A stretch of DNA of 64,000 nucleotides from Anolis carolinensis (lineage: Eukaryota): positions 94,565,923-94,629,922 of the forward strand of contig NC_085844.1 in the NCBI RefSeq assembly GCF_035594765.1, in the 5' to 3' direction. Numbering within the stretch: the stretch's first letter is position 1; every line of letters begins with the position of its first letter. Positions 62,501-64,000 of this stretch are shown piece by piece. A program made the position numbers.

Positions 62501-64000
62501 ACTGACTGATATTTCTAGTAAGTAAATCTCTGTGCTGAACAGAAATCCCTAAATGGAAGTTCTATTGGTTTAATATCCTTGGTTGTAGGGAGAAGGGGAA
62601 GTGTCTGAATGGCCTTCCAGGTACTCGTCTATTAGCTGGAATTTTGGATCTGAGAAATTGAGACTAAGCACTGAGATTGATTTAGTACTGATGGGACCTA
62701 ACTTGTTTCCTCCATTTAGGGGGCATCTCCTGGCATTCAGGATCCAGTCCTCCATTATGTCGGTTAATTGCTTAACCGTTGATTCTGCAGCTAGTCTGGC
62801 TACTTCAGGTTCACAGTCAGCTTGCCAATCTGGTGATCCAATACTGTCCTCATGTTCTTGGCTGGGGCAATTTCCTGGAGGTGCTGCAGTCAGAATCCCA
62901 AGCTCTACCAGACCCACCAAAGCTCCAATAGTAGCTTTTAGGTCAGACACTTCCCTTTGCAGCATATCCATTCTCAGAAATAAATTTTCTGCTGTCTGCT
63001 CTACTAGGAAGCATTGGTCTCGTATGAGGTCATGCAGTGAAGGGATGGTGTTCTCCGGTGGTATCGAGTCAAGTCTGCCAATCCTATCTTTTAGAGTGTT
63101 TATAATTTCTATGTAAGCAGCTGATTGTCTTTTCGATGGAGGTGGAGGGGTCAGTTCCATCAAACCTGGGTCAATGGACCAATTAGCAGCACCTTCATTA
63201 AGGGAAAGTCGAGCACTAGACGCAGCCTCATCGTCCTCATCCATTTTCTCTGCTGTTGTACAAATTGTCTTTGAAATACCTGCTCTGCCCAATGCAGTCA
63301 AGTTCATGAATTCAGGATCCAGCTGGTGTTCACTTGCTTCTGGTTCTTTCCCAGTGTTTTCTGGATCATAGTATTCTAGAATTGACTTCTGAACTAGGTT
63401 AGGCACAGTGTTGATAGTGGAGGCTTTGCGTAGCTGGGCCCTTGTAGAAACCATCCTAGTGGATGAAAGCTTCTCAAGCTAACAAAACCAGAACAGGTCA
63501 GTCCTCCTGTACTTTGTGCCTTTTCCAACACATATGGCTCCCACTGAATGATTCAAGATACTAAAATGCTAGATTAAAAGATACTAAAATGGCAAAATAG
63601 TAAAGTCTAAAAAAAATTACCTAATGCAAGAAATGTTCCACGCCCAGATAGAAAGGGACCTGGATCTGCAGTCTCCTCTCAAGTAGTTCCAAAGGCAGCA
63701 ATAGAAGGGCTGGCTGGAGGTATTCTGACCCCTTCTGCAGCAGTGCAACAGACTCGCCAGGAACTTGCCCCTGTGGCCAGCAAACTTGGTGTTGACTTTC
63801 TTTAAGTTGTAAGTGTCCCGGAACTTCAAGCTCTGACTTGCTTGGTTGTTTCTTACACCTTCCTTTTTTCTTTCTCCTTCTTACTCTTCTTCAGCATTAG
63901 AGTAAGCTCACAGCAAACAAAAGCTTTTGACTCTGTGGCCACCACAAAACTGACTATACTAGCAGGTGAAAAACTAATTACAAGCAACTACTTGTAATAG

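What the first reader, a model, noticed from the sequence alone, without database searches (positions are those of the whole stretch)
62570..63454. Intact 294-aa orphan ORF, possibly a stand-alone or co-opted retrotransposon ORF1
Seen: an 885-bp stop-free frame from a strong-Kozak ATG, while the other coding relics in the window are short truncated TE fragments. It starts MVSTRAQ, has acidic and Pro-rich linkers, and a clean heptad repeat (L158 M162 L165 V169 L172 I176 L179 V183). No endonuclease/RT ORF2 follows downstream on the minus strand, only a MITE scrap and AT-rich DNA, with an AATAAA at 62171-62176. Established: LINE ORF1 proteins oligomerise through coiled coils, and LINE copies are normally 5'-truncated, so a 5' part surviving without ORF2 is the unusual configuration; L1TD1 is a known domesticated ORF1. 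Inference: this is either a young, 3'-deleted LINE (RTE-X-like is my unverified guess) or a lineage-specific gene under selection.
Basis: partly seen in the sequence, partly recalled or inferred. Interest (0 to 1): 0.75.

Follow-up and report, generated by a model that had tools for sequence, protein, structure and literature searches.

The report
Lizard-restricted orphan coiled-coil protein gene
The 294-codon reading frame is real and belongs to a tiny, unnamed protein family so far seen only in lizard-type sequences, and nothing tested links it to a retrotransposon ORF1.

Summary
The ORF is confirmed at 62570-63454 (-): 294 aa, A at -3 and G at +4, and a 302-codon stop-free run that 0 of 60 simulated windows reached. 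The heptad positions, the AATAAA at 62171-62176 and the lack of a downstream RT or endonuclease are also confirmed.

An exhaustive search of 1.84 billion representative proteins gave 4 relatives, and a profile search added one. Two are "hypothetical protein, partial" of the agamid lizard Phrynocephalus forsythii; three come from unnamed short contigs. The relatives share the start, colinear conserved blocks and the hydrophobic heptad pattern at 26-44% identity, so the frame has been kept by selection on a protein.

No defining feature of a LINE ORF1 was met. There is no Transposase_22/RRM, CCHC, PHD or esterase domain, no adenine bias and no adjoining ORF2, and the protein is acidic.

Best reading: a low-copy, lineage-restricted coding gene for a largely disordered protein with a central coiled coil and an N-terminal PIP-box-like motif. 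A mobile-element origin of unclassified type is not excluded. Copy number, synteny and expression could not be tested here. Interest is modest.

The parts
62570..63454 (-). Complete coding sequence, 294 codons plus TAA stop, one uninterrupted exon
   Evidence: length beyond chance; relatives found
63368..63391 (-). Residues 22-29, QKSILEYY: fits the canonical PIP-box pattern and follows a net +3 N-terminal stretch (residues 1-21)
   Evidence: The strict pattern occurs in 60 of 20000 shuffles of the protein. P0002 has a related motif at the same place with only one aromatic. Pattern definition from PMC6881253
63161..63184 (-). Residues 91-98, NWSIDPGL: short conserved block in the otherwise variable N-terminal half
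   Evidence: shared with P0001 and P0002
62870..63037 (-). Residues 140-195: the best conserved block of the family. It holds a Cys-containing motif, then the heptad helix (a/d positions 158-183), then a Gly/Leu-rich end with Pro-Pro
   Evidence: 45% identical cells (84 of 185) against 18-40% in the other blocks. a/d positions are hydrophobic in 26 of 29 relative cells, against 23 of 75 at the other positions of 156-184. Predicted helix 140-184 at low confidence. Translation checked
62729..62812 (-). Residues 215-242: second predicted helix with a conserved Trp-containing motif near its end
   Evidence: P0004 aligns here (44% over 80 aa). A similar motif was seen by eye in P0003
62171..62176 (-). 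Candidate poly(A) signal AATAAA, 393 nt after the stop, followed some 30 nt later by a short A-rich run
   Evidence: inference only, no transcript data
62306..62398 (.). Hairpin-type repeat scrap (23-nt arms, 91% complementary, 47 nt between them) inside the presumed 3' untranslated region
   Evidence: pair I4; not named, no repeat library
63456..63620 (-). Candidate 165-nt intron in the 5' untranslated region, from a donor-like AG|GTAAT to an acceptor-like AG two bases before the ATG. It is read by eye only, is predicted by no tool and is not shared with any relative
   Evidence: weak inference.

Best explanation
The ORF is a real protein-coding sequence. It is the only full-length member seen so far of a small, unnamed protein family, whose only named members come from a lizard (the agamid Phrynocephalus forsythii). 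It stands alone as a single coding exon and is not attached to any mobile-element enzyme.

The protein is acidic. Its first roughly 110 residues are predicted to lack regular structure. Then come a long central helix with a conserved heptad pattern, an acidic linker, a second conserved helix and a non-conserved tail.

The mechanism I commit to is a scaffold or adaptor:
- The central helix (residues 140-184) forms a coiled-coil oligomer.
- Short motifs in the flexible N-terminal arm dock onto partners. These motifs are the basic start, the PIP-box-like motif at 22-29 and the block at 91-98.
- The most concrete candidate partner is the sliding clamp PCNA, which would place the protein in the nucleus at replicating or repairing DNA.

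Shown: the frame, the family, the conserved blocks, the heptad conservation, and the absence of known domains and of an ORF2.
Inferred: that the family is a host gene, that the helix oligomerises, and any docking partner. I put PCNA docking alone at about 0.15.
For: - Frame length is beyond chance: 0 of 60 simulations reached it.
- Codon-position composition is coding-like: G is 31.9% at position 1 and 14.6% at position 2.
- There are 4 relatives among 1.84 billion representatives, plus 1 by profile.
- P0002 aligns colinearly with residues 1-195, starting at the same Met (E 2.4e-18). P0001, P0003 and P0004 align at E 1e-17 to 2e-22.
- Open frames kept at 26-44% identity imply selection on the protein (inference).
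- The heptad a/d positions stay hydrophobic in 26 of 29 cells, against 23 of 75 elsewhere in 156-184.
- Every relative sits in a cluster of one member on one contig.
- No second copy lies in the window.
- The two P. forsythii models came through an annotation that masked repeats first (PMC10113879, passages).
- No mobile-element domain was found in the protein, in its relatives or within 10 kb downstream.
- The PIP-box pattern sits in a conserved N-terminal block; the strict pattern occurs in 60 of 20000 shuffles.
Against: - There are no expression data of any kind.
- The exact protein is not in the 15-billion collection, and no relative above 44% identity exists there. No well-annotated lizard proteome supplies an orthologue.
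- All five relatives are short (92-196 aa), and both named ones are flagged partial.
- P0005 no longer shows one of the family's most conserved blocks. P0003 and P0005 start downstream of the shared N-terminus. The family therefore includes truncated or decayed copies.
- P. forsythii has two copies, 84% identical over 96 aa, on different chromosome-sized contigs. That also fits a mobile origin.
- Low copy number is weak evidence in lizards. The abstract of PMC5381506 (listing) says non-mammalian genomes harbour a large L1 diversity; that their LINE families are small is my recollection, not a passage I read.
- Both structure models are of low confidence, with mean pLDDT 40 and 44.
- Against PCNA docking, the motif's 7-residue flanks carry net charge 0 and -1. 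PMC6881253 reports that non-positive flanks argue against binding (passages). P0002 keeps only one of the two aromatic residues.
- Acidity is not general in the family: P0002 and P0005 have pI 9.1 and 8.6.
Confidence: 0.5

Rival explanations
1. The ORF is encoded by, or was recently derived from, a low-copy mobile element of a type whose first protein has no catalogued domain. Examples would be an unclassified 'type V' LINE ORF1, a gag-like ORF of a tyrosine-recombinase retroelement, or a transposon accessory protein. In this copy it would be detached from the enzymatic part, or the rest of the element would lie beyond the window end, 546 bp upstream of the ATG.
For: - A coiled coil is typical of several ORF1 types, and an unclassified type V exists (PMC4120745, passages).
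- P. forsythii has two dispersed copies, 84% identical, on different large contigs.
- Truncated or decayed-looking relatives exist.
- The neighbourhood is repeat-rich, with no Pfam-supported host exon anywhere in the window.
- No annotated orthologue is found in other lizards.
Against: - No RRM/CTD, CCHC, PHD or esterase domain.
- No strong adenine bias: 31.9%, against the 43.4% mean given for ORF1 of mammals and lizard together.
- The protein is acidic, with 25 K+R against 45 D+E.
- No RT or endonuclease within 10 kb downstream. The only RT relic is 11.8 kb away, with a 1.4-kb tandem array in between.
- No longer or fused relative.
- No terminal repeats, and no shared word of 9 nt or more between the two flanks that could be a target-site duplication.
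- All relatives are singleton clusters.
Confidence: 0.25
2. The frame was a functional gene or retrocopy until recently but is now unexpressed or free of constraint. It would be an intact-looking copy on its way to decay.
For: - There is no CpG island or TATA-like motif in the 546 bp upstream: 3 CpG, 42% GC.
- GC at third positions (39.0%) equals the window background (39.2%).
- The intronless CDS, with a poly(A) signal and a short A-rich run after it, resembles a processed copy.
- The relatives are fragmentary.
- The last 48 residues are not conserved in an informative way: 12 of 47 cells identical, from two relatives placed there by the aligner.
Against: - 294 codons without a stop, where the other two frames have 22 and 24 stops.
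- The start context is intact.
- All conserved blocks of the family are present in this copy.
- No flanking duplication was found that would mark a recent retrocopy.
Confidence: 0.2
3. The frame is a chance open stretch in non-coding DNA.
For: The region is AT-rich and repeat-rich, and no known domain is present.
Against: - 0 of 60 simulations reached 302 codons; the maximum was 227.
- Significant protein-level relatives exist elsewhere, at E 1.5e-11 to 1.8e-7 against 1.84 billion proteins.
Confidence: 0.02

Closest known systems
LINE-1-type ORF1 protein (type II ORF1; Pfam Transposase_22)
   Same: Similar length. It has a coiled-coil segment with clean heptads, preceded by a variable N-terminal part.
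   Different: - No RRM or C-terminal domain.
- No strands in the low-confidence model.
- Acidic rather than nucleic-acid-binding in character.
- No strong adenine bias.
- No ORF2 after it.
   Same: It shares the idea of a stand-alone ORF1-like gene without ORF2.
   Different: As I recall it, L1TD1 is recognisable as Transposase_22. This protein and its relatives do not match that family. L1TD1 did not come back from any search.
Unclassified ('type V') LINE ORF1 proteins
   Same: They are defined by the absence of recognisable domains, which also holds here (PMC4120745).
   Different: Membership rests on sitting upstream of an APE/RT ORF2. That is not the case in this window and could not be examined for the relatives.
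Small disordered PCNA-binding proteins carrying a PIP-box
   Same: A canonical Q-x-x-aliphatic-x-x-aromatic-aromatic motif lies in a predicted unstructured, N-terminal, conserved stretch after basic residues.
   Different: - The immediate flanks are not positive.
- The one relative covering the site keeps a degenerate form.
- No sequence relationship to any known PCNA partner was found.
CCDC184 family (Pfam DUF4677)
   Same: It is the nearest cluster by language-model features for relative P0003, with score 0.84 and 161 of 256 shared features. It is a short coiled-coil protein of chordates.
   Different: By the tool's own calibration the score is in the chance range. PF15726 matched neither the window protein at E up to 10 nor any of the 5 members at E up to 1.
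Taxonomically restricted ('orphan') genes in general
   Same: Narrow distribution, no known domain, fast divergence, largely disordered, single exon.
   Different: This is a description, not a family.

Membership tests
LINE-1-type ORF1p (type II) | Coiled-coil domain | tested here: met
   Heptad a/d residues 158-183, conserved as hydrophobic in 26 of 29 relative cells. No coiled-coil predictor was run.
LINE-1-type ORF1p (type II) | RRM plus C-terminal domain (Pfam Transposase_22 and its split models), described as very conserved among L1 families in PMC5381506 | tested here: not met
   No such match at E up to 10 for the protein or at E up to 1 for the 5 members. The PDB sequence and profile searches returned only syntaxin and YbaB noise.
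LINE-1-type ORF1p (type II) | Followed on the same strand by an ORF2 with endonuclease and reverse transcriptase | tested here: not met
   0 of 138 open segments (at least 45 aa, six frames, 52500-64000) matched such a domain. A badly decayed ORF2 with shorter open stretches would be missed.
LINE-1-type ORF1p (type II) | Adenine-rich sense strand (43.4% mean for ORF1 of mammals and lizard together, PMC5381506) | tested here: not met
   31.9% A; the paper passage is.
LINE-1-type ORF1p (type II) | Dispersed multi-copy family in the host genome | not testable with these tools
   No source genome or repeat library was available. Within the window there is no second copy. The protein collections hold 5 relatives, all singleton clusters.
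Type I ORF1 (RRM + CCHC knuckle) | CCHC zinc knuckle after an RRM | tested here: not met
   No C-x2-C-x4-H-x4-C pattern; 5 Cys and 4 His, scattered. No Pfam match.
Type III / IV ORF1 (PHD; esterase) | PHD finger or esterase domain | tested here: not met
   No Pfam match.
Type V (unclassified) ORF1 | First ORF of an element whose second ORF is APE/RT | tested here: not met
   Not met in this window. It is untestable for the relatives, whose DNA context is not available.
PIP-box PCNA partners | Canonical motif Q-x-x-(L/M/I/V)-x-x-aromatic-aromatic (PMC6881253) | tested here: met
   Residues 22-29. The strict pattern occurs in 60 of 20000 shuffles. P0002 has a degenerate form at the same place.
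PIP-box PCNA partners | Positively charged flanks, motif in a disordered region (PMC6881253) | tested here: inconclusive
   The 7-residue flanks have net charge 0 and -1, though residues 1-21 are net +3. P0002 has flanks of +2 and -1. The region has no regular structure in the model, at low confidence.
PIP-box PCNA partners | Physical binding to PCNA | not testable with these tools
CCDC184 / DUF4677 | Match to PF15726 | tested here: not met
   The only link is a feature score of 0.84 for P0003.
Syntaxin-type SNARE | SNARE motif followed by a membrane anchor | tested here: not met
   Best E 0.66 over 46 residues. By eye, the hydrophobic stretch that follows holds charged residues in the window protein and in P0002/P0003.

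The most novel reading that the evidence does not exclude
A protein family born within lizards, either de novo or from an uncatalogued mobile-element ORF, and now kept as a host gene. Its product would oligomerise through a coiled coil and use an N-terminal PIP-box to sit on PCNA, making it a lineage-specific accessory factor of replication or repair.
Probability: 0.1. Interest if true: 0.55.

Novelty: new member of a known kind. Interest (0 to 1): 0.3.

Why it matters
If it is a kept host gene, it adds a lizard-restricted, domain-less protein family that current annotation almost wholly misses. Only two partial 'hypothetical' models exist. It also offers a concrete, testable hint (a PIP-box) as to where such a young protein plugs into conserved machinery.

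If it instead proves to be a mobile-element protein, it would document an ORF1 type without any catalogued domain.

Either way the immediate value is modest. It corrects the ORF1 label and gives a full-length reference for the family.

Tried and rejected
- Word-indexed search at similar lengths: 1189 candidates, none significant.
- Search of longer proteins with the profile: none among 8000 scored candidates. The tool itself calls this weak evidence.
- PDB by sequence and by profile: only coiled-coil noise, syntaxin at E 0.66 and YbaB at E 0.64.
- AlphaFold2 without and with the 5-row alignment: mean pLDDT 40.2 and 44.4.
- Foldseek of the second model against the PDB: 0 matches at E up to 0.001, best 0.42. 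The viral structure library was not tried, because a model this poor gives meaningless matches.
- ESM Atlas: it could not read the window protein. P0002 gave no usable feature hit and TM scores of 0.36 or less. P0003 gave the CCDC184 lead at 0.84, which Pfam did not bear out.
- Transmembrane or SNARE reading of residues 175-192: rejected because of charged residues there in the relatives.
- Retrocopy marks: no word of 9 nt or more is shared between the 86 nt after the A-rich run and the 546 nt upstream.
- Terminal direct or inverted repeats around the ORF: none convincing among 17 direct families and 22 inverted pairs in 57000-64000.
- Rfam at gathering scores and tRNA scan of the whole window: 0 and 0.
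- Prokaryotic genome collection: the alignment was too variable to seed a scan. With the single protein, 51 pattern matches gave no relative, as expected for a eukaryotic gene.
- Literature: the locus-tag prefix of the two P. forsythii proteins occurs in 0 papers. A search on squamate lineage-specific or orphan genes listed nothing about this family (listing only).

Full report
**1.

- The ORF listing gives an ATG-initiated ORF of 294 aa at 62570..63454 on the minus strand, beginning MVSTRAQ (DNA).
- The start has A at -3 and G at +4. An in-frame stop lies 8 codons upstream. The two other sense frames carry 24 and 22 stops within the CDS.
- The stop-free run of 302 codons is the longest in the window; the next are 234 and 188. 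In 60 first-order Markov simulations of the window the longest run averaged 154 codons and never exceeded 227, so 0 of 60 reached 302.
- AATAAA lies at 62176-62171, 393 nt after the stop.
- A hairpin-type repeat scrap lies at 62306-62398.
- The window is 39.2% GC with one run of 136 N, which I left alone. The ORF is 45.3% GC, and CpG is depleted to the same degree in both.

**2. Nothing that defines a retrotransposon follows the ORF**

- I translated every open segment of at least 45 aa in all six frames of 52500-64000 (138 segments) and scanned them against Pfam. None matched a reverse transcriptase or endonuclease. Three unrelated hits at E 0.002-0.009 lay below their curated cut-offs.
- For 1-52499 I scanned all 206 segments of at least 62 aa (150, 56). 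One matched: an RVT_1 relic at 50313-50729 (-), E 2.3e-5, below the gathering score.
- That relic is 11.8 kb beyond the ORF's stop. A 1.4-kb tandem array lies in between.
- An ORF2 so decayed that it has no open stretch of 45 aa would escape this test.
- No second copy of 61800-64000 or of the protein exists in the window.
- No convincing terminal repeats surround the ORF. No word of 9 nt or more is shared between the DNA after the A-rich run and the 546 nt upstream.

**3. The protein has no known domain**

- Pfam at E up to 10 returns only Cep192_D6, at E 0.11 and 13 bits against a cut-off of 35.
- The PDB sequence search returns only syntaxin-1A SNARE helices at E 0.66 or worse, which is generic coiled-coil noise.
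- The profile of the family returns YbaB at E 0.64.
- There is no CCHC pattern.
- AlphaFold2 gave mean pLDDT 40.2 without an alignment and 44.4 with the five-row alignment.
- For what a model of that quality is worth, the second model shows no regular structure before residue 112, apart from a short helix at 50-57. It then shows helices at 112-130, 140-184, 215-242 and 270-280, and no strands.
- Foldseek of the second model against the PDB gave 0 matches at E up to 0.001.

**4. It does have relatives, but few**

- The word-indexed search at similar lengths found none.
- The exhaustive phmmer scan of 1.84 billion representatives found 4:

| Relative | Length | E-value | Aligns to residues |
|---|---|---|---|
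| P0001 | 118 aa | 1.5e-11 | 83-181 |
| P0002 | 196 aa | 9.1e-10 | 14-201 |
| P0003 | 181 aa | 5.4e-08 | 140-202 |
| P0004 | 92 aa | 1.8e-07 | 166-246 |

- A profile of these five sequences (alignment A1) added only P0005, 97 aa. Among proteins of 516-2000 aa it found nothing (weak evidence by the tool's own note).
- P0002 and P0003 are 'hypothetical protein, partial' of Phrynocephalus forsythii, an agamid lizard, on two different contigs of 137 and 133 Mb.
- P0001, P0004 and P0005 come from unnamed short contigs (967-1125 nt).
- Each of the four clusters looked up has one member on one contig, and P0005 is likewise a single member on one contig. The window's exact protein is not in the collection.
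- The P. forsythii annotation masked repeats with Repbase, de novo libraries and a TE protein set. It then combined ab initio, homology and RNA-seq models (PMC10113879, passages read). Which evidence backs these two models I could not see; I did not open the supplements.

**5. The relatives show constraint on a protein**

- By BLASTP, P0002 is colinear with residues 1-195 from the same initiator Met (26% identity, E 2.4e-18). P0001 covers 71-181 (38%), P0003 140-195 (43%) and P0004 165-244 (44%).
- At this divergence, unconstrained DNA would be unalignable and full of stops. Open, colinear frames in several sources therefore mean the frame has been kept by selection for much of its history. 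This is an inference, and it holds whether the selection acted on a host gene or on an active element.
- Conservation is blocky. Identical cells are 45% (84 of 185) in residues 140-195 and 40% (15 of 38) in 1-30, against 18-19% in 108-139 and 196-225.
- In the heptad stretch the a/d positions are hydrophobic in 26 of 29 relative cells. The remaining positions of 156-184 are hydrophobic in 23 of 75.
- The last 48 residues are not informatively conserved.

**6. Results that cut the other way**

- All relatives are short.
- P0003 and P0005 share a start downstream of the family's N-terminus.
- P0005 no longer shows one of the most conserved blocks.
- The two P. forsythii copies are 84% identical over 96 aa yet lie on different large contigs.
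- This could be a small gene family with decaying members, or a low-copy mobile family.
- The abstract of PMC5381506 (listing) says non-mammalian genomes harbour a large L1 diversity. That their LINE families are small is my recollection, so low copy number alone does not exclude a LINE.
- No orthologue from any other annotated lizard came back.
- I have no expression evidence.

**7. Testing the ORF1 reading feature by feature**

[quoted passage not shown] It also gives a mean of 43.4% adenine for ORF1 of mammals and lizard together.
- PMC4120745 (passages) lists the five ORF1 types: RRM+CCHC; coiled coil+RRM+CTD; PHD; esterase; unclassified.
- Here only the coiled coil is met.
- RRM/CTD, CCHC, PHD and esterase are not met.
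- Adenine is 31.9%.
- The protein has 25 K+R against 45 D+E and pI 4.54. I recall ORF1 proteins as basic nucleic-acid binders. The relatives vary, though: P0002 has pI 9.1 and P0005 8.6.
- I therefore do not file the ORF as an ORF1. The residual possibility is the catch-all 'type V', or a protein of another element class. That would need DNA context that these tools could not give.

**8. How it most likely works**

- The conserved central helix with a maintained heptad pattern argues for oligomerisation.
- The N-terminal half looks like a flexible arm carrying short conserved motifs.
- One motif, residues 22-29, fits the canonical PIP-box as defined in PMC6881253. It follows a net +3 stretch. 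It occurs by chance in 60 of 20000 shuffles of the protein. It lies in the second-best conserved block.
- P0002 has a related motif at the same place with only one aromatic residue.
- Against this, the immediate 7-residue flanks are net 0 and -1, and the same paper reports that non-positive flanks argue against binding.
- I therefore propose a coiled-coil adaptor with motif-bearing arms. PCNA is the most concrete candidate partner, at low probability.

**9. Gene structure**

- The coding part is one exon.
- A donor-like AG|GTAAT at about 63620 and an acceptor-like AG two bases before the ATG could bound a 165-nt intron in the 5' untranslated region. I read this by eye only. It is predicted by no tool and is shared with no relative.
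The CDS was searched as it stands.
- The 546 bp upstream hold 3 CpG and no TATA-like motif.

**10. What stayed unchecked**

- Copy number in the source genome.
- Repeat-library matches.
- Synteny, dN/dS and expression.
- The DNA around the relatives.
- The closed metagenome and viral contig collections.
- A scan of the prokaryotic genome collection found, as expected, no relative.
- The locus-tag prefix of the two lizard proteins occurs in 0 papers of the library. A search on squamate lineage-specific or orphan genes listed nothing on this family (listing only).

**11. Verdict**

The frame is real, constrained and lizard-restricted, and it belongs to an unnamed family. The retrotransposon ORF1 label is unsupported but not fully excluded. 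Interest is modest.

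Noticed in passing
window 55593-56988: Tandem array of about 1.4 kb with nested periods of 136-138, 172-174 and 35 nt (87-90% matches), G/T-rich on the plus strand. It lies between the ORF and the RT relic.
   Followed up: no
window 50313-50729 (-): The only Pfam-supported mobile-element relic found in the window: a 139-aa open stretch matching RVT_1 positions 10-86 at E 2.3e-5, below the gathering score. 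It is on the same strand as the ORF but 11.8 kb beyond its stop.
   Followed up: partly
window 18636-19265 (-) and 44939-45313 (+): Two ORFs with closely similar translations over roughly their first 120 residues, in opposite orientation, about 26 kb apart. This looks like a dispersed repeat family with an open frame but no Pfam match.
   Followed up: no
window 1958-2434 (+) and 15734-16291 (-): Two ORFs share a similar C-terminal stretch, which suggests two copies of another repeat family. Neither has a Pfam match.
   Followed up: no
window 14147-14796, both strands: ORFs on opposite strands have mirror-like translations around a TA-type microsatellite. This suggests a palindromic or long inverted-repeat structure.
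   Followed up: no
window 62601-63116 (+): A 171-aa GTG-initiated ORF lies antisense to the CDS. I take it for a by-product of the sense frame's codon make-up; it has no Pfam match.
   Followed up: partly
window (place not given): One run of 136 N. It was left as it is.
   Followed up: no
whole window: No Rfam family at gathering score and no tRNA gene in 64 kb. No Pfam-supported host exon was found among the open segments scanned. The ORF therefore sits in a gene-poor, repeat-rich stretch.
   Followed up: yes
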